Shown here: piece after piece, positions 11,436-53,064 of the stretch
How the letters are laid out: every line of letters begins with the position of its first letter
How positions within the stretch are numbered: the first letter of the stretch is position 1
Virus record (IMG/VR): IMGVR_UViG_3300025168_000106
Location: 1-55,591 of that record
Length of the DNA stretch: 55,591 nucleotides
Direction: 5' to 3' (one strand)
DNA from: a virus
Taxonomy: Duplodnaviria; Caudoviricetes
Notes under the pieces: generated by a model
What the model was told of the DNA's origin: nothing
The model's input: the letters and a program-made list of their open reading frames with translations, nothing else
Database searches by the model: none
Position numbers and translations under genes: made by a program

Positions 11436-11472
11436 GGACGAGGGTTCAAACCCTCGTCCTTTTATTTTTTTT
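11436..11472 (+). terminator. Intrinsic terminator after the capsid gene, built on the GAGGGTT-CA-AACCCTC palindrome
   Basis: GGACGAGGGT-TCAA-ACCCTCGTCC stem followed by a T-rich tract. Confidence 0.85.
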
Positions 11473-17700: not shown

Positions 17701-19397
17701 GTTTTGCTTTCGGAAACGGAGTAGAGAGTTATAAGATTCGTGACTCCATGTCAGGGCGAGCTCTTGCTCTTGGGAATAGAGTTACTACAGTAGCTGCTCA
17801 AGATTTTAAGAGAGCAGACCGATTTGCAGATATGACCTATAGCGGGGTCTTTAATAATGAGTTTAACTTAAATAAGTTAAATGAGTTTAACCTTGGTCTA
17901 GCAAACTATAAAACTTTAGAAGAGTCTTTCGGTCCTATCGAAAAAATGTTTGCTCAAGACACCAATATCCTTGTCCTTCAAGAGGATAAGATATCGTATG
18001 TACTTGCAAGTAAGAATCTTATCTCAGACTCTACGGGAGGAGGGGTAGTAGCTTCTATACCTGAAATTTTAGGTACTCAGATAGCTAGAATAGAAGAGTT
18101 TGGTATCAGTAATAACCCTGAAAGTTTTGCTCAATGGGGACCGTCTAAATACTTTACGGATGCCAAAAGAGGAGCTGTTATACAACTCACAGGAAGTGGA
18201 CCTTCTGAATCTCTTGTAGTGGTATCCGAAGCAGGTATGAGAAGTTGGTTTAGGGATATGTTCATCTCAAACTTTACTTCTCAAAAACTTGGCGGGTATG
18301 ACCCATATATGAACGAGTATGTTCTTGGAAATAACCTTACTTCTCTACCTAAAGAAATTTCATGTATACAGTGTGGAATAACTAAAACATATAATATAAA
18401 AGGTAAAAACATAAGTGCTTGCTACAACCTTGGAGGGACGGTAGGCGATGTAGTAATCTCTTGGCCTACTCCCTTTGTAAGCGACACTTTTTCTTTTACC
18501 ACTACTTATAACGGTGTTACGACTACTCATGCGGCTTTTAACTCTGCAGGTACTGTAACGATTGTAAAAAACTCTGTTGCAGCCGAACAGTTGGATATTG
18601 TATTCTCCGTTCCTTCATCATCCGATACTGCTTTGGTTAATTTTTCAGTAGCGTGTCCTGTAGCAGATACCATTAATATTATTTTAGTTACTCTAACTAA
18701 TAATTCCGATGCAGGCAAAACAATTCATAATCAATATCGTTGGACAGATGGAGTATTTTCTTCTCCTACTCATTCGAATCAGATTTCATTTTTAACCTCT
18801 ACATCCTCTCGTGTAGTATCTCAGTATTCTCAGATAACAGGACCTCAAGGAGCGGGGATTATACCTGCTCAGGGAGCTACGGTGTATTTAATTTCGGATA
18901 AGCAATCGACAGATGATTACAATTTAAACGTAGCTACAGATAAGTTTTTATGGCTAAGGAGCTCTACTTTATATCCAAATACTGAAGCAGGTATAGGAAA
19001 TTTACTTACTGCTGCAGCGACTCTTACCCCTACGGGAACTACGCCTACTTTCTCGGCAAACTTCCCTATGCCCGCAGCAAATGATAATGACTACCTCTAT
19101 CTTGTTTGGAACTACTCAACAGCTACGGAAGTAAGTTTATGTTACAGTACTACAAGCCCATTCGATGCTTGTTGTGATTGTACATGCGCTACCGGAGAGT
19201 GCACGCAGTGGTTAGTAAGTAACACCACCTCTTCTCAAGTAGTTTTACGATACACAAATTGTGATGGAGTAAAAGGAACAACTATTACTTTGGGAGCTAA
19301 TAACAGTACTACCTTGTGTGCCGATGGAGTTATAAGTATTATTTCAGGACCAACCACAGGAGTTAATTTTACAATAACAAAGTGCGATTGCACATAA
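14706..19397 (+). CDS. Tail nozzle/muzzle (DNA stabilization) protein with Cys-rich C-terminal extension
   Basis: N-terminal FIAGRMNKVVDERLIPDGEYIDALNI, LFFTDDLNQPRRIN, FAYRYKY, GIVYMDEFNR, GISNNPESFA and GGYDPY motifs, typical of Bacteroidota podophage nozzle proteins. Confidence 0.7.
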   Translation: MANTIRNFIAGRMNKVVDERLIPDGEYIDALNIRLGSTESSEVGSVENSKGNDRLTTLEYIDGTVLSVDATCIGAYADGEQETMYWFIHDDNFSSVGATGKLDLIVSYNTETLILTYHLVSIDDGGGVNTTLNFSKTYLITGINLIDNLLFFTDDLNQPRRINVNKNYADPVSNIDGFSAEDILVIKAPPIAAPTIVPFNIQGEENYLEDRLISFAYRYKYKDNEYSAISQFSAPSFVPEQYQLSNESYLNEGMVNSTNACQVTYNSGGPLVVGIDLLFKEMTSDIIKVIEKINKVNDGIANNVFETFSFSNSKIFTVLPSSEILRLYDNVPLLAKAQTVMGNRLMYGNYVDGFDLKRRNAPTQFTYRTDLVSEPIGLKDLAYNRESSLYTWIANVNPNNSQLNLDLTNAVGNLKTGATIDLTLSFTHYNFANGNPTSPPVEESTDRQLNFLYTLTQNYNSVSELYASVDFQEKIGTVSNILPVYSATVPTSCSGLTLTDLFNCTITDSLQGGNPTPMYKYASGITGPGEPVLTTHDNGTDIISFQFPAMQFVSDVLNPGIFIFEYYSVSAISTSFSNLGSPKSLHSNRGYEIGIVYMDEFNRATTALVSPDNTIHVGCSKSAAKNSIKVTIPTTQEAPDFAKRYKFVIKPDEASYNTVYTSIFFYDPVTATDYFLLQGENAAKVEEGDRLIVKRDVDGPLNSCKYVTVLEKKAQEEDFILPTDSTGTVISVPQGVYMQTRSSEFNSSLTDAASLNPGTLNYCAGKDSFDNLEFVQRAYNFSALLDPAISAPDGDVYPIYDIPVGSSIRLRFEFSRKGTGDGNNACERRIYKFDETYISSETYGNIIDWWNGDNVGETIDDGEQEVGGDGDPIQNEYITPTTASVVNFYGITPSLNTNKYRWYMNPVSNEIRLALTGTRACGSVSNDNKKSCIKATIDVVRAENTIVFETEPVDALPDVWYESSESYSIDALGNHSGNVTNQNIAGNVSGVVDTAFFNCFAFGNGVESYKIRDSMSGRALALGNRVTTVAAQDFKRADRFADMTYSGVFNNEFNLNKLNEFNLGLANYKTLEESFGPIEKMFAQDTNILVLQEDKISYVLASKNLISDSTGGGVVASIPEILGTQIARIEEFGISNNPESFAQWGPSKYFTDAKRGAVIQLTGSGPSESLVVVSEAGMRSWFRDMFISNFTSQKLGGYDPYMNEYVLGNNLTSLPKEISCIQCGITKTYNIKGKNISACYNLGGTVGDVVISWPTPFVSDTFSFTTTYNGVTTTHAAFNSAGTVTIVKNSVAAEQLDIVFSVPSSSDTALVNFSVACPVADTINIILVTLTNNSDAGKTIHNQYRWTDGVFSSPTHSNQISFLTSTSSRVVSQYSQITGPQGAGIIPAQGATVYLISDKQSTDDYNLNVATDKFLWLRSSTLYPNTEAGIGNLLTAAATLTPTGTTPTFSANFPMPAANDNDYLYLVWNYSTATEVSLCYSTTSPFDACCDCTCATGECTQWLVSNTTSSQVVLRYTNCDGVKGTTITLGANNSTTLCADGVISIISGPTTGVNFTITKCDCT

Positions 19398-47205: not shown

Positions 47206-47239
47206 GTTATAAAGGAGTGAGGGTTTGAACCCTCACTCC
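47206..47239 (-). terminator. Putative terminator of the ribozyme-containing operon, built on the 16-bp palindrome
   Basis: - strand GGAGUGAGGGU-UCAA-ACCCUCACUCC followed by UUUAU, just downstream of the stop at 47252. Confidence 0.6.
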
Positions 47240-47251
47240 CCACTTTTTCTC

Positions 47252-47656
47252 TTAGTTGTTTAATTCGTTAAGAGCTTTATGTAGTCGCAGTCTATCCGCT
47301 TCGTCTTGGTCAGAATCAAAAAACTCACCATTTAAGTCTATCCAATTCCCATCCCACGCCACACCATTCAAGTACCATTGAAAGTTTCGCTGCACAATGT
47401 TCACGCCCTCAATTCCGTTTAATCTTTCTTTGGTGGTGGTGGTTTGCCATCCGCAAGTTGTGATAGATATAGTTCTGTTTAACCCATGAGAGCGCGATGC
47501 GATTACGTTATCATGTAATAGCAATTCTGTTGATACTGAGCGTCTAGGTTCTCCGCTGTTGCTTCTGTGTATTAATATTCTTACTCGCATGTTTTGTCTC
47601 TTGAAAGGTCTGTCGTTCATAAAGGCATTGATTGAATCTCTTGTTATCTTTCTCAT
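47252..47656 (-). CDS. Hypothetical early protein
   Basis: 134 aa with LHDNVIA...ITTCGWQTTTTKERLN, a pattern recalled from phage early proteins. Confidence 0.7.
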   Translation of the reverse strand: MRKITRDSINAFMNDRPFKRQNMRVRILIHRSNSGEPRRSVSTELLLHDNVIASRSHGLNRTISITTCGWQTTTTKERLNGIEGVNIVQRNFQWYLNGVAWDGNWIDLNGEFFDSDQDEADRLRLHKALNELNN

Positions 47657-47657
47657 T

Positions 47658-47885
47658 TTAGTTTCGGATTATATTATAGTTATACTGTGAAGCGTTGAAA
47701 AAACTGTCATCTTTTAACAGTCCTTCGCGTCTCTCAAATTCCTTGTAGTCATCGACATACAAACTTTCGCTTAATTCATGTCGTGTACTCTCAGGCGTTT
47801 CGAATCTGTATTCCGACAGCGTAGAAGAAAATAATATCTTTCTTTCTTTCTGTTCTTTTAACAGGGGTAAATAAATCTTTGTCAT
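47658..47885 (-). CDS. Hypothetical early protein
   Basis: ATG 47885 chosen because it aligns exactly with the start codon of the homologous spacer at 49626. Confidence 0.65.
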   Translation of the reverse strand: MTKIYLPLLKEQKERKILFSSTLSEYRFETPESTRHELSESLYVDDYKEFERREGLLKDDSFFNASQYNYNIIRN

Positions 47886-47923
47886 AACATTTTGATGGTG
47901 GGTCATCACCCGTTAATTGATTG

Positions 47924-47977
47924 GCTGTTTCGACTGTTTTCAGTCATCGTCAGGGGTGATACACATCACCCGACAGC
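47924..47977 (-). ncRNA. Type III hammerhead ribozyme D (extra U after the CUGACGA core)
   Basis: GCUGUC^GGGUGA-UGUGUA-UCACCC-CUGACGA-U-GACUG-AAAA-CAGUC-GAAACAGC; predicted cut between 47972 and 47971. Confidence 0.9.
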
Positions 47978-48007
47978 AGTGAGGGTTCAAACCCTCACTT
48001 CTAGCTG

Positions 48008-48223
48008 TTATCCTTCCCATCCGTTTATTTTGCCCTCTTCATTGTCTAGGGTATTCCATCCGGTAGGGCTCTTCCCGAAAAACCGAACAGAGTCAGCCTC
48101 GTAATCATCTCGCACTTTTTCTAACTCCTTCCGGACAGAGGTTAACTCCGTGCGTAACTCCTCAATTTTTTTGAGCATCAGTAACTCATCTTTACTCCAA
48201 TCTTTAATAATCATAACACACAA
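48008..48223 (-). CDS. Hypothetical coiled-coil early protein
   Basis: Lies between ribozymes C and D; start TTG 48223 or ATG 48214. Confidence 0.65.
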   Translation of the reverse strand: MCVMIIKDWSKDELLMLKKIEELRTELTSVRKELEKVRDDYEADSVRFFGKSPTGWNTLDNEEGKINGWEG

Positions 48224-48235
48224 TTTTGTTGGTTT

Positions 48236-48284
48236 CTGTTTCGTCCTTTAGGACTCATCAGGAGCAGTACACACCGCCCGACAG
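48236..48284 (-). ncRNA. Type III hammerhead ribozyme C
   Basis: CUGUC^GGGCGG-UGUGUA-CUGCUC-CUGAUGA-GUCC-UAAA-GGAC-GAAACAG; predicted cut between 48280 and 48279. Confidence 0.93.
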
Positions 48285-48320
48285 CGGAGTGAGGGTTTGA
48301 ACCCTCACCCCATCACCCCC

Positions 48321-49256
48321 TCACCATTGTGAGGATAACTGTAGCTCTCTCGCACATCTCGTGTAAAGGTCTGTATTACGTCCATGCCTATCAACGAAGG
48401 GTAACACCTCCGCGTTAATTTTGCCGGTCTTAATGAACTTGCAAAACGCCTTCGCTAACTGCATAACCTTGTTAGCCTTATCAACATCGCCATCGTACAT
48501 GGCTAACACAATCGGGGCATATCTCCTTTGCGCTTGTGAAAGCGTGTGACCTTTCATTGCGCTGTCTACTAGGATGTACATGAGCTCGTAACGTCGCTTC
48601 AACGTGTTCACGTTTTGGATGCGTGAAGGGATACGAAACTCAACCGTGTCACCTTTGACATTAGCTACACTGCTACGGCCTGAGCCGTTGTACACGTTCT
48701 CGTGGCCACGTGGTAACATGGTCATATTTTCATTGCAATAGTGATGGTTTAGACGTTTACGATATAACGCAAGTATAATGCCCGATATCGGTCGCATTTT
48801 TTCAAGTAACTCAGCACCGCTGACACCCTCAGCCGCAACGGTCATATGACCTCCGCAACGGTAATCCGTTGGACTCCATTGGTCATCTATAACTCTCTCA
48901 GCCTCATGAAACATGTTGTACACCTTAGTTCGCCACACACACGCCCCGATAAGCGGTAAGATATTCGTGACGGCCTCATAACCGCAGCTGCTATCAGTTT
49001 CGAACCCACAGAACAAAGGATACGGACGAACTGAACCGCGACCGAGTCGGGTTTTTTCAATCTCAAAACCGATTGTAAATTTTGCCCTCACTTCTAAGGC
49101 TGAACTCATGCGCATCGCATCCCGGTCCATTGGTTTCACGTTGGCTATGTCACCGAGTGACGCCCCTCCGTTGTAGTTTCTAAAGCTAGGCTTTCTGTGA
49201 TAGCTAGACATTTGACCGCGATTTCGGTTGCTGTCATTTTCAAATTTTACACCCAT
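48321..49256 (-). CDS. Putative amidoligase (COOH-NH2 ligase, Amidoligase_2-like)
   Basis: TIGFEIE, ETDSSCGYEAVT, RCGGHMTV and TVEFRI motifs of the glutamine synthetase-like ligase fold. Confidence 0.8.
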   Translation of the reverse strand: MGVKFENDSNRNRGQMSSYHRKPSFRNYNGGASLGDIANVKPMDRDAMRMSSALEVRAKFTIGFEIEKTRLGRGSVRPYPLFCGFETDSSCGYEAVTNILPLIGACVWRTKVYNMFHEAERVIDDQWSPTDYRCGGHMTVAAEGVSGAELLEKMRPISGIILALYRKRLNHHYCNENMTMLPRGHENVYNGSGRSSVANVKGDTVEFRIPSRIQNVNTLKRRYELMYILVDSAMKGHTLSQAQRRYAPIVLAMYDGDVDKANKVMQLAKAFCKFIKTGKINAEVLPFVDRHGRNTDLYTRCARELQLSSQW

Positions 49257-49280
49257 AATAAAAGTAAATTAAATTAAATT

Positions 49281-49331
49281 GCTGTTTCGTTCTTTTGAAC
49301 TCATCAGGAGTGACAAACATCACCCGACAGC
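49281..49331 (-). ncRNA. Type III hammerhead ribozyme B
   Basis: GCUGUC^GGGUGA-UGUUUG-UCACUC-CUGAUGA-GUUC-AAAA-GAAC-GAAACAGC; predicted cut between 49326 and 49325. Confidence 0.94.
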
Positions 49332-49356
49332 AGTGAGGGTTTGAACCCTCACCCCG

Positions 49357-49626
49357 TTAAAGGTTAATCGTTCTAACTGTCTTAATTGTTTGTACTGTCT
49401 TATAGTCTAAAATAGTATCACAATATTCAGTCACCATTATCACCGCTAAATCTTCGAATTTGATTAATAACGTGTCATATGAGTCTATAATGACATGCTT
49501 TAAACCTATTTCCTTAACTGTATGCAGGTCGCATAATTCGGCATCTTCTGAAATTACAATCTCTTGCCCTTCGCATAGGTTTTGATTAAGACTAACTAAA
49601 ATAGCTCTTGTGTTAGAGTAATTCAT
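49357..49626 (-). CDS. Hypothetical early protein
   Basis: 89 aa, between ribozymes A and B. Confidence 0.65.
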   Translation of the reverse strand: MNYSNTRAILVSLNQNLCEGQEIVISEDAELCDLHTVKEIGLKHVIIDSYDTLLIKFEDLAVIMVTEYCDTILDYKTVQTIKTVRTINL

Positions 49627-49664
49627 GATATTTTAATGGTAGGCCATTACCCGTTAATTGATTG

Positions 49665-49715
49665 GCTGTTTCGTCCTCATGGACTCATCAGGAACGGAAA
49701 ACACCGTCCGACAGC
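49665..49715 (-). ncRNA. Type III hammerhead ribozyme A
   Basis: GCUGUC^GGACGG-UGUUUU-CCGUUC-CUGAUGA-GUCC-AUGA-GGAC-GAAACAGC; predicted cut between 49710 and 49709. Confidence 0.95.
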
Positions 49716-49746
49716 AGTGAGGGTTTGAACCCTCACTTTATAGCTG

Positions 49747-50415
49747 TTATGCTGCGACCTCCATAGGAGTACTAAGCATTTGCATAAAGGCCGCAAGGGA
49801 CTCCGATATGGCTTCGTCGCTGTTAGTAGTCGTGACGGCTCCATGTTCGTCTATGTTCACCACGACATTGCCGTGAATAGGATGTTTAAAACGAAACTGT
49901 GCCATGTTCGTGCTATTCGTTGGCTCCGCTGTGGCTTCAACCTCAGCACCCTCCACAACGTCCTCAATAGTTTCGCCCGTTTCGGTGGCTTGGTCTAATA
50001 AAGCGCGACTCCATTTGTCAAAGTGCTGAACGCTTCGCGGGGCTTTCTGTCCTGCTGTTGCTAGTCGTGTCTGTTCGCGCTTGTATTTGGTTATGAGTTC
50101 GGGGTGCGCATCGTTTCGGTCAGCTATTCTTACAAGCAAATTAGCTTGTGAACGGTCTGAAAATCTTAACGCTTTTTCCACAAATTCGCTTTTGTTCCAT
50201 GATAGACCGGACTCCGCTAGCTGCCTCTGTCCATCCTTAGATGTAAAATGAATTAGGGCGGCTCTCACTTGTGGGGCTTGGGCTAATGATTTTTCGAACT
50301 GCTTCTTTTTCAAATTTCCTTCAGCATCTTGTAACGTGTGTAACTGTTGTAAACTCCCTCCTTCATAGGTAAAGCCGTTAACAAACTGTGTTTCGATTGG
50401 TAATAAATTAGGCAT
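49747..50415 (-). CDS. Hypothetical protein, first gene of the early operon
   Basis: 222 aa downstream of the promoter at 50475-50502. Confidence 0.75.
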   Translation of the reverse strand: MPNLLPIETQFVNGFTYEGGSLQQLHTLQDAEGNLKKKQFEKSLAQAPQVRAALIHFTSKDGQRQLAESGLSWNKSEFVEKALRFSDRSQANLLVRIADRNDAHPELITKYKREQTRLATAGQKAPRSVQHFDKWSRALLDQATETGETIEDVVEGAEVEATAEPTNSTNMAQFRFKHPIHGNVVVNIDEHGAVTTTNSDEAISESLAAFMQMLSTPMEVAA

Positions 50416-50474
50416 AACTTGTTGATTTTTAGCGTTTTACGCTGTTTTACGGAGCATTATTGCTGCCGCGTGTG

Positions 50475-50502
50475 TAAATATAGTACAATTTTAGTGTAAT
50501 TC
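50475..50502 (-). promoter_or_regulatory. Early promoter GAATTACAC-N10-CTATATTTA driving the ribozyme operon
   Basis: Conserved with the 45568 and 47134 promoters; extra GTGYAAT boxes near 50512 and 50546. Confidence 0.65.
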
Positions 50503-50648
50503 AACAACGTTGTGCAATTAATTTACATTCTTAGTATATTAATAGTGTAATACTAATTTGAACGTATCAAAGCAATGAAATAATGACGGCTAATTGTTAA
50601 GGGTGTAAAGGAGGGCTGAGGGGTAAAGGGAAGGTTCTAAACACTTGC

Positions 50649-51429: not shown

Positions 51430-53064
51430 ATGTTTAAAGACAATTCGGGATACTCTCCCAAAGACTTACAGTTTGACGACGAGGGTCGTTTACGATTAAT
51501 ATCGGGCGTCACTAAGATGTCTAAAGCTGTAAAGAGCACGTTAGGTCCAAGCGGTCAAACGGTACTCATTGAATCTCCCAACCACACGCACGGCATTACG
51601 GTCACCAAGGATGGTGTTACTGTAGCTAAGGCTGTTGACCTAATTGACCCGGTAGAGAACCTAGCTGTTAGGATGATGAAAGAGGCATCGGACAGGACTG
51701 CGTCTGAGGCGGGCGATGGGACGACTACTGCTATTGTCCTTACGGAGGCTTTGGTGTGTTCTTTTTACGACAATATAGATAGACATGGTTCAGCAAACAC
51801 AACTGAGGCTTTGCGTCATCTTAGCAAATACACTCAAGATATCATCAAGCATCTAGAGGGTATTAGTGAGCCTTTAACTGACAAGCGTCTTCTTGACGTA
51901 GCTACTATCTCAAGTAATAATGACGCAGCGGTGGGTGAGATAATTGCCAAAGTATATAAAGCTGTTGGTAAGGATGGGATTGTTACGGTTGAGAACAGTC
52001 AATCTAGCGAGACCACTTTCGAGACCACTCACGGTATCAAGATAGACAAGGGATATACAGCTCCTTTGTTCATTAACGACCACTCTCGTGACGAGTGTAT
52101 TTTAGACGACTGCAACATCATGGTCTCTGACGCTGAGGTGAGCAGTGTACTACAGATAGAGAAAATTTTAAACCACATTATCCCCACGGGGAAAAAGCTA
52201 CTTATCATAGCTCCTGTCTCTCAACAAGTTACGAATACTTTAGCTGCTAACGTTATGAAAAACGGGTTAAAGGTTTGCATTATCTCTCCTCCTAACTTCG
52301 GGTATAAGCAGCACGAGTTGATGCAAGACATTGCGGCAGCTGTAGGGGCGACGTATTTCAGTGAGAAGACGGGTGACGATTTAAGTCTTATGGAGCCTAC
52401 TGACTTGGGGATTGTTTCTAAGGCTGTTATTGGAAGAGAGTCTACTATCCTTCTTCAATCTTCTGACAATGCTAGTGAAGAGTTATCTAAGCGTATCTCT
52501 CAGCTTCGTGTAGCTGTTAAGAAAGAAAAGAAAAAAGTTGAGAAGGAATTTATCCGTTCTCGTATAGCTACCCTTACGGGTGGTATAGGTGTCATCCATG
52601 TAGGTGGACAAACTGACCTAGAGCAGAAAGAGTTATTTGACCGTGTTGACGATGCGGTGTGTGCTGTACGTTCTGCTTTAGAGGAGGGTATCCTTCCGGG
52701 AGCAGGTATGGCTTTATACAATTCTATACAAGCTTGCTTAAGTAAGGAGTCTGATATTGACCCTAAAGAGATGGCAAGACAAGTGCTTTCTCAATCTCTT
52801 GTAGCTCCTATTGAGCAGATTCTTATTAATGCAGGTACTTCTTTTGATGATGTGTACTATAGAGATTGGCACGCAGGTGATAAGGCGCATCCTAAAGAAG
52901 GTTATGACGTAAAGAATAGTAAGTATGGCCACCTGATAGATATGGGTGTTATAGACCCTCTAAAGGTTACCAAGGTAGCTTTGCAGAACGCTGTCTCGGT
53001 AGCTACAACTATCTTGAGTACTAATGCCATTATTACTATGGCTCGTTCTTTAGAGAAAGAATGA
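51430..53064 (+). CDS. groEL: Phage-encoded chaperonin GroEL
   Basis: AVKSTLGPSG, VTKDGVTVAK, AGDGTTTA, RVDDAV.A, GVIDPLKV; no GGM tail. Confidence 0.97.
   Translation: MFKDNSGYSPKDLQFDDEGRLRLISGVTKMSKAVKSTLGPSGQTVLIESPNHTHGITVTKDGVTVAKAVDLIDPVENLAVRMMKEASDRTASEAGDGTTTAIVLTEALVCSFYDNIDRHGSANTTEALRHLSKYTQDIIKHLEGISEPLTDKRLLDVATISSNNDAAVGEIIAKVYKAVGKDGIVTVENSQSSETTFETTHGIKIDKGYTAPLFINDHSRDECILDDCNIMVSDAEVSSVLQIEKILNHIIPTGKKLLIIAPVSQQVTNTLAANVMKNGLKVCIISPPNFGYKQHELMQDIAAAVGATYFSEKTGDDLSLMEPTDLGIVSKAVIGRESTILLQSSDNASEELSKRISQLRVAVKKEKKKVEKEFIRSRIATLTGGIGVIHVGGQTDLEQKELFDRVDDAVCAVRSALEEGILPGAGMALYNSIQACLSKESDIDPKEMARQVLSQSLVAPIEQILINAGTSFDDVYYRDWHAGDKAHPKEGYDVKNSKYGHLIDMGVIDPLKVTKVALQNAVSVATTILSTNAIITMARSLEKE

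What the first reader, a model, noticed from the sequence alone, without database searches (positions are those of the whole stretch)
47883..49749. Four hammerhead ribozymes punctuate the first early operon: a self-processing polycistronic mRNA
Seen: four consecutive intergenic spacers on the coding (-) strand each hold a complete type III hammerhead (49665-49715, 49281-49331, 48236-48284, 47924-47977). All have the GUC cleavage triplet, CUGA(U/C)GA and GAAA cores, and 6-bp stem I. Stems I and II differ in sequence between copies but keep pairing (GGACGG/CCGUUC, GGGUGA/UCACUC, GGGCGG/CUGCUC, GGGUGA/UCACCC; GUCC/GGAC, GUUC/GAAC, GACUG/CAGUC), which indicates selection for structure. Established: this is the topology of the sTRSV hammerhead used in the synthetic RiboJ insulator; loop 1 starting UG and loop 2 ending in A fit its loop-loop contact. 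Inference: the transcript from the 50475-50502 promoter cuts itself into gene-sized RNAs (about 760, 384, 1046 and 308 nt, plus a final two-gene piece). That would be a protein-independent analogue of RNase III processing of T7 early RNA. Isolated phage hammerheads have been reported, but I do not know of a one-per-junction array in an early operon.
Basis: partly seen in the sequence, partly recalled or inferred. Interest (0 to 1): 0.97.

Follow-up and report, generated by a model that had tools for sequence, protein, structure and literature searches.

The report
Four hammerhead ribozymes between phage genes
An uncultured marine phage carries four well-formed self-cutting hammerhead RNAs, one in each gap between the genes of one operon; this layout was described for phages in 2011, so it is a clean but ordinary example.

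Summary
Four type III hammerheads lie on the - strand at 49665-49715, 49280-49332, 48236-48284 and 47924-47977, one in each spacer of a six-gene operon. A model built from 28 related hammerheads scores them 49-75 bits; the next best match in the 55.6-kb window scores 10.8. Rfam RF00008 gives 36-43 bits for three, below its 48.5-bit cut-off, and misses the fourth, which has an extra U after A9. In relatives, 98% of cells pair and 11 of 16 pairs show compensatory change.

Self-processing of the operon RNA is the best reading, but no RNA data exist. The novelty claim fails. Perreault et al. 2011 (PMC3088659) described clustered hammerheads flanking single phage genes, proposed this processing and showed cleavage in vitro. 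This scan has also noted such arrays often on other DNA.

Three things are added here:
- A strong hairpin abuts 38 of 45 related hammerheads.
- Related ~60-kb phage records carry 1-4 copies each, and two cultured Flavobacterium elemoviruses carry one.
- Two small genes are insertions bounded exactly by these modules, and a natural variant lacks one of them.

Verdict: a new member of a known kind.

The parts
49665..49715 (-). Hammerhead 1 (type III). Cleavage is predicted between 49710 and 49709.
   Evidence: R1 65.8 bits; RF00008 39.9 bits; scanner gives stem III 5, stem I 6, stem II 4 bp.
49280..49332 (-). Hammerhead 2 (type III). Cleavage is predicted between 49326 and 49325.
   Evidence: R1 75.0 bits; RF00008 42.8 bits; scanner.
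48236..48284 (-). Hammerhead 3 (type III). Cleavage is predicted between 48280 and 48279.
   Evidence: R1 72.1 bits; RF00008 36.2 bits; scanner.
47924..47977 (-). Hammerhead 4 (type III variant). It has one extra U between A9 and a 5-bp stem II. Cleavage is predicted between 47972 and 47971.
   Evidence: R1 49.2 bits with the U as an insertion. Not listed by RF00008. The same variant, with compensatory stem II changes, occurs in L021, L022 and L026.
49717..49736 (-). Hairpin abutting hammerhead 1. It would form the 3' end of the upstream cleavage product.
   Evidence: upstream fold -14.1 kcal/mol.
49333..49352 (-). Hairpin abutting hammerhead 2.
   Evidence: -15.1 kcal/mol.
48286..48311 (-). 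Extended hairpin abutting hammerhead 3.
   Evidence: -19.1 kcal/mol.
47979..47998 (-). Hairpin abutting hammerhead 4. Its centre is inverted relative to the other three.
   Evidence: -14.1 kcal/mol.
49747..50415 (-). First gene of the operon, 222 aa, unknown function.
   Evidence: ORF list. No Pfam or PHROG family at E up to 0.01.
49357..49626 (-). 89-aa ORF, bounded by hammerheads 1 and 2. It is absent from relative G001 and from a contig of run X8.
48321..49256 (-). 311-aa ORF between hammerheads 2 and 3, unknown function.
   Evidence: No family found.
48008..48214 (-). 68-aa ORF, bounded by hammerheads 3 and 4. It is absent from relative G001.
47252..47885 (-). Last piece of the operon: a 75-aa ORF (47658-47885) and a 134-aa ORF (47252-47656), with no spacer between them. 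The 134-aa protein matches Pfam Kyano_Gp96.
   Evidence: PF23790, E 4.9e-11.
47214..47239 (-). Extended copy of the same hairpin after the last gene. It is a likely operon end.
   Evidence: This is inference: no T-run follows it on the - strand.
50477..50504 (-).
   Evidence: A 9-of-12 sigma-70-type match only. It is unverified.

Best explanation
The leftward six-gene operon (50415 to 47252) is transcribed as one RNA. Four active type III hammerheads cut it, probably during transcription, at every spacer. The pieces would be about 760, 384, 1046, 308 and about 720 nt.

Each upstream piece would end in a strong hairpin plus a 6-8-nt tail carrying a 2',3'-cyclic phosphate. Each downstream piece would begin with a 5'-hydroxyl and the folded ribozyme, 21-38 nt ahead of the next ATG.

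This would uncouple the genes' RNA stability and translation and shield each start region from upstream sequence, as the synthetic RiboJ part does.

Shown here: the motifs, their placement, their structural conservation and the linked hairpin. Inferred: co-transcription, cleavage in vivo, and the effect on stability and translation.
For: Motifs and placement:
- Complete cores and three helices are present in all four copies.
- R1 scores are 49-75 bits against 10.8 for the next match.
- All four lie on the coding strand. Each is 24-34 nt after a stop codon and 21-38 nt before the next ATG.
- No terminator-like site on the - strand lies between the genes. The one - strand pattern match in that span, 49719-49702, lies inside hammerhead 1 itself.

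Structural conservation in 28 related hammerheads:
- 98.0% of cells pair, against 78.3% when shuffled and 38-50% when slid.
- 11 of 16 pairs have changes on both sides.
- The covariation score is 0.617 against 0.223, with 0 of 500 shuffles as high.

The fourth copy:
- An extra base at the same core position is known from an active viroid hammerhead, CChMVd(+) A10 (PMC1636495, passage seen).
- The variant recurs in three other records with compensating stem II changes.

Loops: loop 1 starts with U in 45 of 45, loop 1 fits UNmYN in 39 of 45, and loop 2 ends in A in 44 of 45. This fits the published contact.

Linked hairpin: 38 of 45 hammerheads have a hairpin of -11 kcal/mol or stronger directly upstream. 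Only 3.1% of 3000 random 35-nt windows do.

Precedent: comparable tandem phage hammerheads cleaved in vitro and in E. coli (PMC3088659).
Against: - No copy reaches Rfam's curated score, and one is missed altogether.
- The relatives were found with a hammerhead pattern and a pairing-based scanner. The high share of paired cells is therefore partly built in, and related sequences can beat shuffles without any structure (tool caveat).
- In MFE folds of the spacers, only hammerhead 1 is predicted in the full three-way form. For the others the fold gives stems I and II and a shorter or alternative stem III. Upstream ACAGC can pair with the 5' strand of stem III at copies 1 and 4.
- The promoter and the 'early' timing are unverified.
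- The closest GenBank relative, MW202828.1, has no hammerhead, so the element is dispensable in this phage group.
Confidence: 0.7

Rival explanations
1. The hairpin-plus-hammerhead modules matter mainly as repeated boundaries at which gene cassettes are gained, lost and swapped by homologous recombination. This would resemble the promoter-stem-loop (PeSL) cassettes of T4-type phages. Cleavage would be a secondary or cassette-autonomous function that lets any inserted gene be expressed in any context.
For: - Against relative G001 (84-93% identical flanks), the window has two extra units. One spans hammerhead 1 to 2 (89-aa ORF) and one spans hammerhead 3 to 4 (68-aa ORF). G001 has one mosaic hammerhead at each place.
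- A contig of run X8 (depth 37.5) joins 49262 to 49665, skipping 402 bases. A depth-5.8 contig in the same run holds the skipped gene.
- Many contigs end or branch inside the modules, at 48222-48286, 49307 and 49717.
- The module from stop codon to ATG is duplicated at copies 1 and 4 in front of unrelated proteins.
- PeSL precedent: PMC2839356 (abstract seen).
Against: - Repeats of any function become recombination sites, so boundaries do not show purpose.
- Stems I and II are kept paired by compensatory change. That argues for selection on the RNA fold, not only on DNA identity.
- The variant form rests on one relative and one contig of one run.
Confidence: 0.15
2. Cleavage is a decay or timing device. 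The 5'-hydroxyl piece downstream of each cut is degraded or translated differently. The array would then set a gradient or a shut-off of expression along the operon and would not yield stable single-gene mRNAs.
For: - Reviews state that the role of bacterial and phage hammerheads is unsettled, and that different stabilities or translation efficiencies of the pieces have been suggested (PMC6765202, passage seen).
- Perreault et al. raise regulated cleavage for phage variants.
- Alternative pairing of the stem III strand at copies 1 and 4 could tune the cutting rate.
Against: - Each piece is flanked by structures expected to protect it: a 3' hairpin and a folded 5' ribozyme.
- RiboJ-cleaved mRNAs are more, not less, abundant in E. 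coli (PMC6206723).
- Nothing is known about the host's RNases.
Confidence: 0.1
3. The pieces between two hammerheads circularise. The 3' tail of each piece pairs with the stem III strand left at its own 5' end, rebuilds a hammerhead, and is ligated by the ribozyme or by a host RtcB-type ligase. The result would be circular mRNAs.
For: In the window, the stem III strands of neighbouring copies are cross-compatible (5/5, 5/5 and 4/5 pairs). Across relatives, 19 of 23 neighbour junctions have at least 4 of 5 pairs.
Against: - Stem III varies little in the whole set, so cross-compatibility is expected anyway.
- 4 of 23 junctions have only 2-3 of 5 pairs.
- Perreault et al. looked for circular or spliced products of tandem phage hammerheads and detected none.
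Confidence: 0.04
4. The motifs are inactive relics or chance look-alikes.
For: All copies score below the threshold against Rfam RF00008.
Against: - All four cores are complete.
- R1 scores are 49-75 bits against 10.8 for the next match.
- Compensatory changes occur in 11 of 16 pairs.
- The motifs recur at gene junctions in 15 related records.
Confidence: 0.01

Closest known systems
Clustered hammerhead ribozymes flanking single genes or short gene blocks in prophages (Perreault et al. 2011, PMC3088659; passages seen)
   Same: Several hammerheads lie close together, in gene orientation, between phage genes. Processing of long phage transcripts into gene-length mRNAs was proposed. Tandem sets cleaved in vitro, and one set cleaved in E. 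coli.
   Different: Here all four are type III with an sTRSV-like loop pair. Each is fused to a strong upstream hairpin. They lie in an uncultured marine phage related to Flavobacterium and Cellulophaga phages, not in a prophage. The passages I read do not contain the word 'terminator' and do not describe an upstream hairpin. The paper's figures and supplements were not seen.
sTRSV(+) hammerhead and the synthetic insulator RiboJ (PMC6206723; loops from PMC2632901)
   Same: Both are type III, with a UNmYN-type loop 1 and a tetraloop 2 ending in A. At copies 1 and 4 a small hairpin follows the ribozyme and precedes the start codon, as in RiboJ (ribozyme plus 23-nt hairpin).
   Different: These copies are natural and lie in a DNA phage. 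There are four per operon, not one behind a promoter. The dominant accessory structure is upstream, not downstream. That sTRSV belongs to RF00008 is recalled, not tested.
PeSL cassettes of T4-type phages (Arbiol et al. 2010, PMC2839356; abstract seen)
   Same: Short repeated regulatory modules between small non-essential genes mark the ends of insertions and deletions between close relatives.
   Different: PeSLs are a promoter plus a terminator stem-loop acting on transcription. The modules here are a hairpin plus a ribozyme acting on RNA. No promoter was found in them.
RNase III processing of T7 early RNA (recalled textbook knowledge, no call)
   Same: A polycistronic early phage transcript is cut at intergenic hairpins into gene-sized mRNAs with protective terminal structures.
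   Different: T7 depends on a host protein enzyme. Here the RNA would cut itself.

Membership tests
Hammerhead ribozyme, type III (Rfam RF00008, clan CL00010) | Conserved core C3-U4-G5-A6-N7-G8-A9 and G12-A13-A14 | tested here: met
   All four copies have it. Copy 4 has one extra U after A9, a position where an active viroid hammerhead also has an extra base.
Hammerhead ribozyme, type III (Rfam RF00008, clan CL00010) | Cleavage triplet N-U-H with an A15.1-U16.1 pair | tested here: met
   GUC in 4 of 4 copies. The U-A pair is invariant in 28 of 28 related sequences.
Hammerhead ribozyme, type III (Rfam RF00008, clan CL00010) | Three helices around the core, stems I and II closed by loops, stem III open | tested here: met
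   Scanner. 98% of cells pair and 11 of 16 pairs have compensatory change.
Hammerhead ribozyme, type III (Rfam RF00008, clan CL00010) | Score at or above Rfam's gathering threshold (48.5 bits) | tested here: not met
   42.8, 39.9 and 36.2 bits; the fourth copy is not listed. E-values in the 4.5-kb search were 3.7e-07 to 2.8e-05.
Hammerhead ribozyme, type III (Rfam RF00008, clan CL00010) | Loop 1-loop 2 tertiary contact motif (5' U and penultimate pyrimidine in loop 1; 3' A in loop 2) | tested here: met
   Loop 1 fits UNmYN in 4 of 4 window copies. Loop 2 ends in A in 3 of 4 and in 4 of 4 if copy 4 is read with a 5-bp stem II. Loop 2 fits RNnA in 2 of 4 and in 3 of 4 on that reading (motif).
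Hammerhead ribozyme, type III (Rfam RF00008, clan CL00010) | Site-specific self-cleavage giving 5'-OH and 2',3'-cyclic phosphate ends | not testable with these tools
   This needs a bench assay or RNA end mapping.
Clustered phage hammerheads (Perreault et al. 2011) | Several hammerheads in close proximity, in gene orientation, flanking single genes or short blocks in phage DNA | tested here: met
   Four copies lie in 1.8 kb, all on the - strand like the ORFs, one per spacer.
RiboJ-type insulator | Hammerhead directly followed by a hairpin ahead of the translation start | tested here: inconclusive
   Copies 1 and 4 have a small leader hairpin with one compensatory change. Copies 2 and 3 do not. 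RiboJ is a synthetic part, so this is a likeness of function only.
PeSL shuffling cassettes | Early promoter plus terminator stem-loop in each repeat | tested here: not met
   No promoter-like site lies inside the modules, and no T-run follows the hairpins.

The most novel reading that the evidence does not exclude
The hairpin-hammerhead unit may be a portable, self-sufficient 'gene socket'. It would supply a stop codon, a 3' protective hairpin, a self-cutting site and a leader, so any ORF dropped between two units is expressed on its own RNA. The shared stem III might also let excised gene-sized RNAs close into circles. The units would then drive both cassette shuffling at the DNA level and the formation of decay-resistant, possibly circular, mRNAs in Flavobacteriia phages.
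Probability: 0.08. Interest if true: 0.75.

Novelty: new member of a known kind. Interest (0 to 1): 0.3.

Why it matters
The biological role of bacterial and phage hammerheads is still unsettled (PMC6765202). This locus does not change the concept, but it offers a compact and regular test case:
- four ribozymes in 1.8 kb;
- a fixed hairpin partner;
- natural variants with and without two of the flanked genes;
- a related single hammerhead 14 nt ahead of the first gene of a leftward operon in cultured Flavobacterium elemoviruses.

In those cultured phages, cleavage and its effect on mRNA fate could be measured in a real infection.

Tried and rejected
- Rfam gathering scan of the whole window: 0 families.
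- RNA evidence: no RNA holder was listed among the 20 runs for 47600-50500. RNA ends, strand and expression could therefore not be examined. The single read-laying run used DNA contigs only.
- GenBank phages: blastn of the hairpin plus hammerhead 2 gave only two weak 30-nt matches in Streptomyces phages, at E 0.7. I rejected these as chance.
- Region-level blastn against GenBank phages: one distant relative only, MW202828.1, with 7% of the query covered. That record has no R1 match.
- Gene functions: no Pfam or PHROG family was found for the 222-, 89-, 311-, 68- and 75-aa proteins.
- The 89-aa and 75-aa proteins share a leader but are not alike (E 1.5).
- Bacteroidota-type -7 box TAnnTTTG (consensus recalled, not from a call): there is no exact match on the - strand between 45575 and 53249. 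This neither supports nor excludes internal promoters.
- The script's downstream start distances are crude. For 7 of 45 hammerheads no ORF start was called within 66 nt. In 6 of these the caller took an earlier start that overlaps the ribozyme; for the seventh (L021) no downstream ORF was called, the hammerhead lying close to the locus end.
- The supplements and figures of PMC3088659 were not seen. They may show hairpins or type III arrays like these.
- Tools not used: protein homologue searches, structure prediction and complex prediction.
Full report
WHAT THE WINDOW IS

The window is a complete IMG/VR virus record of 55,591 bp, estimated 92% complete. Genes run rightward from 95 to 34544 and leftward from about 50415 to 34750.

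The 544-aa ORF at 51430-53064 is a phage GroEL. Its relatives, and those of the 808-aa primase-helicase-like ORF, are mostly phages of Flavobacterium, Cellulophaga, Polaribacter and Maribacter. The closest GenBank record is an uncultured podovirus, MW202828.1, at 57-68% protein identity. DNA of the region occurs in seawater, marine and brine metagenome runs of 12 studies.

THE OBSERVATION

On the - strand, the operon has ORFs of 222, 89, 311, 68, 75 and 134 aa. The last two abut. Each of the other four junctions holds a complete type III hammerhead, at 49665-49715, 49280-49332, 48236-48284 and 47924-47977.

Each copy has GUC, CUGA(U/C)GA, GAAA and the A15.1-U16.1 pair. Stem III is 4-6 bp, stem I is 6 bp plus a U-G or U-A pair, and stem II is 4-5 bp.

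Two details were missed. No copy reaches Rfam's gathering score: the gathering scan gives 0 hits. In E-value mode RF00008 gives 42.8, 39.9 and 36.2 bits against 48.5, and the fourth copy is not listed. That fourth copy carries an extra U between A9 and stem II.

IS IT MORE THAN CHANCE?

- The loose core pattern occurs 6 times against 0.72 expected, and 0 of 100 shuffles reach 6.
- I built covariance model R1 from 28 related hammerheads, three from the window and 25 from other viral contigs.
- Run over the whole window with filters off, R1 gives 75.0, 72.1, 65.8 and 49.2 bits for the four copies. The other 12 listed matches score at most 10.8 bits, at E of 1.1 or more.
- The fourth copy was not in the training set. 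It aligns with its U as a single insertion.

STRUCTURAL CONSERVATION

One scan of IMG/VR with a hammerhead pattern bearing this stem III returned 24 loci.
- In 21 of them the match passes my pairing scanner.
- A 22nd (L019) has one stem I mismatch but scores 76 bits with R1.
- Two (L013 and L028, same sequence) have no stems, and I dropped them.

On the 28-sequence alignment:
- 98.0% of cells form standard pairs, against 78.3% in shuffles and 38-50% with the partner slid;
- 11 of 16 pairs show changes on both sides;
- the covariation score is 0.617 against 0.223, with 0 of 500 shuffles as high.

Caveat: the sequences were collected with a motif and a pairing filter, and they are related. The paired share is therefore inflated. 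The compensatory changes are the informative part.

Loops, over 45 hammerheads of which 41 are distinct: loop 1 begins with U in 45 of 45, loop 1 fits UNmYN in 39, and loop 2 ends in A in 44. This is the loop-loop contact motif described for sTRSV, CChMVd and other natural hammerheads (PMC2632901, passages seen).

The extra base after A9 has a natural precedent in the active CChMVd(+) hammerhead, where it lowers the rate moderately (PMC1636495, passage seen). The same U variant recurs in L021, L022 and L026 with compensating stem II changes.

THE HAIRPIN PARTNER

Each window copy is preceded, at 0-1 nt, by a strong hairpin built on a 16-bp palindrome. That palindrome occurs at 11 sites in the window. 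At 11440 it is followed by a T-run and looks like an ordinary terminator. At the hammerheads it is not.

The association is general.
- Of 45 hammerheads in 22 sources, 38 have a hairpin of -11 kcal/mol or stronger within the 35 nt just upstream.
- Two more have a weaker copy of their phage's own hairpin.
- The remaining five are all the first hammerhead of an array or the only one in the record, and each lies 189-657 nt from the previous ORF.
- Only 3.1% of 3000 random 35-nt windows from the same DNA reach -11 kcal/mol.

The hairpin sequence differs between phage lineages while its position stays the same. In 40 of 45 cases a stop codon lies 9-51 nt upstream. In 38 of 45 an ORF start lies within 66 nt downstream.

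DISTRIBUTION

I searched whole records for 15 of the 24 loci's contigs; the other nine were not searched whole. All 15 have hits, which follows from how they were chosen.

| Copies | Records |
|---|---|
| 4 | G006 |
| 3 | G008, G009, G011, G012 |
| 2 | G001, G004, G007, G010, G015 |
| 1 | G002, G003, G005, G013, G014 |

The copies in a record always lie on one strand and within about 3.1 kb. The closest GenBank relative, MW202828.1, has none.

Two cultured Flavobacterium elemoviruses each have one, at 35.5 bits. In NC_062741.1 it lies at 19025-19079, 14 nt ahead of gp62, the first gene of a leftward operon, and it has no hairpin.

CASSETTE BOUNDARIES

Relative G001 is 84-93% identical to the window in the flanks. 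It lacks exactly the unit between hammerheads 1 and 2 (89-aa ORF) and the unit between hammerheads 3 and 4 (68-aa ORF). At each place it has one hammerhead, with the window's upstream neighbour sequence on its 5' side and the downstream neighbour sequence on its 3' side.

In run X8, a contig of depth 37.5 joins 49262 to 49665, skipping 402 bases with 17 other letters between. A depth-5.8 contig in the same run carries the skipped gene. Many contigs end or branch inside the modules.

These are contigs, from one relative and one run, so the evidence is modest. It does fit recombination between modules, as shown for PeSL cassettes in T4-type phages (PMC2839356, abstract seen).

MECHANISM

The best reading is self-processing of the operon RNA at each spacer. 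The upstream piece would end in the hairpin plus a short tail. The downstream piece would start with a 5'-OH and the folded ribozyme, ahead of a short leader.

Against an easy picture, MFE folding gives the full three-way junction only for copy 1. At copies 1 and 4, an upstream ACAGC can pair with the 5' strand of stem III. That could slow cleavage, or it could sequester the tail after cleavage.

No - strand terminator-like site lies between the genes other than a pattern match inside hammerhead 1. The proposed promoter is a 9-of-12 consensus match only. Cleavage, co-transcription and timing are all inferred.

WHAT IS KNOWN

Perreault et al. [quoted passage not shown] They propose processing of long phage transcripts into gene-length mRNAs, and they show cleavage of three tandem arrangements in vitro and of one in E. 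coli. They also looked for circular or spliced products and found none.

A 2019 review still calls the purpose unsettled (PMC6765202). Two further literature searches turned up nothing specific to Flavobacteriia phages or to a hairpin-hammerhead unit. The passages I read of the 2011 paper do not mention a terminator or an upstream hairpin, but its figures and supplements were not seen.

This scan's own notes list many phage hammerhead arrays on other DNA: 427 notes hold the search words, with arrays of 10 to 33 copies. One note describes a hairpin plus a type III hammerhead in every gap of a Saccharibacteria operon. These notes are unchecked leads, but they agree that the layout is common.

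VERDICT

The novelty claim is not supported. This is a new member of a known kind, with three modest additions: the fixed hairpin partner, the module-bounded gene insertions, and a cultured-phage relative that makes the question testable.

Noticed in passing
window 11440, 34550, 43169, 45531, 46560, 47219, 47981, 48291, 49335, 49719, 50649: A 16-bp palindrome with invariant 7-bp arms and a variable 2-bp centre occurs 11 times, against 0.16 expected, all between genes. Only the copy at 11440 is followed by a T-run. Related phages use a different arm sequence with the same TT-NN-AA centre. The invariance of the arms within one genome hints at a sequence-specific partner.
   Followed up: partly
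window 49634-49649 and 47893-47908 (- strand): A small leader hairpin lies between hammerheads 1 and 4 and the next ATG, after an identical linker. It has one compensatory change between the two copies. It also follows hammerheads in L011, L016, L022 and L026. The downstream proteins (89 and 75 aa) are unrelated. It may be a translational operator or a RiboJ-like spacer.
   Followed up: partly
window 49737-49745 and 47999-48007 (- strand): The repeated module begins with the upstream gene's TAA stop codon followed by CAGC. This ACAGC can pair with the 5' strand of stem III, enclosing the hairpin (MFE folds). It could compete with the ribozyme fold, or it could tuck in the 3' tail after cleavage.
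   Followed up: no
L064 1501-1555 = NC_062741.1 19025-19079 (- strand); same in MT497078.1 28913-28967: Cultured Flavobacterium elemoviruses carry one type III hammerhead (GUA triplet, CUGAAGA core; R1 35.5 bits). It lies 14 nt ahead of the first gene of a leftward operon and is not annotated in the records.
   Followed up: partly
L010 4506-4558, L018 2745-2797, L066 2335-2387, L067 2046-2099, L068 5282-5334, L069 4768-4821, L070 3198-3250, L075 2185-2237: A sub-type of the related hammerheads has U opposite U at the first stem II position (10.1/11.1) where G-C is usual. Four of the eight (L010, L018, L070, L075) lack the upstream hairpin and are the first copy of their array; the other four have it.
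   Followed up: no
window 51430-53064 (+): The phage encodes a GroEL chaperonin. It is 35-57% identical to those of Flavobacterium and Cellulophaga phages and to that of MW202828.1, where a GroES gene follows.
   Followed up: partly
window 2242, 8847, 12330, 13012, 21193, 51401, 53894, 55202 (+ strand): Exact TAnnTTTG boxes (the Bacteroidota -7 consensus, recalled) lie a short way upstream of gene starts on the + strand. Several directly follow terminator-like hairpins. This fits a Bacteroidota host.
   Followed up: no
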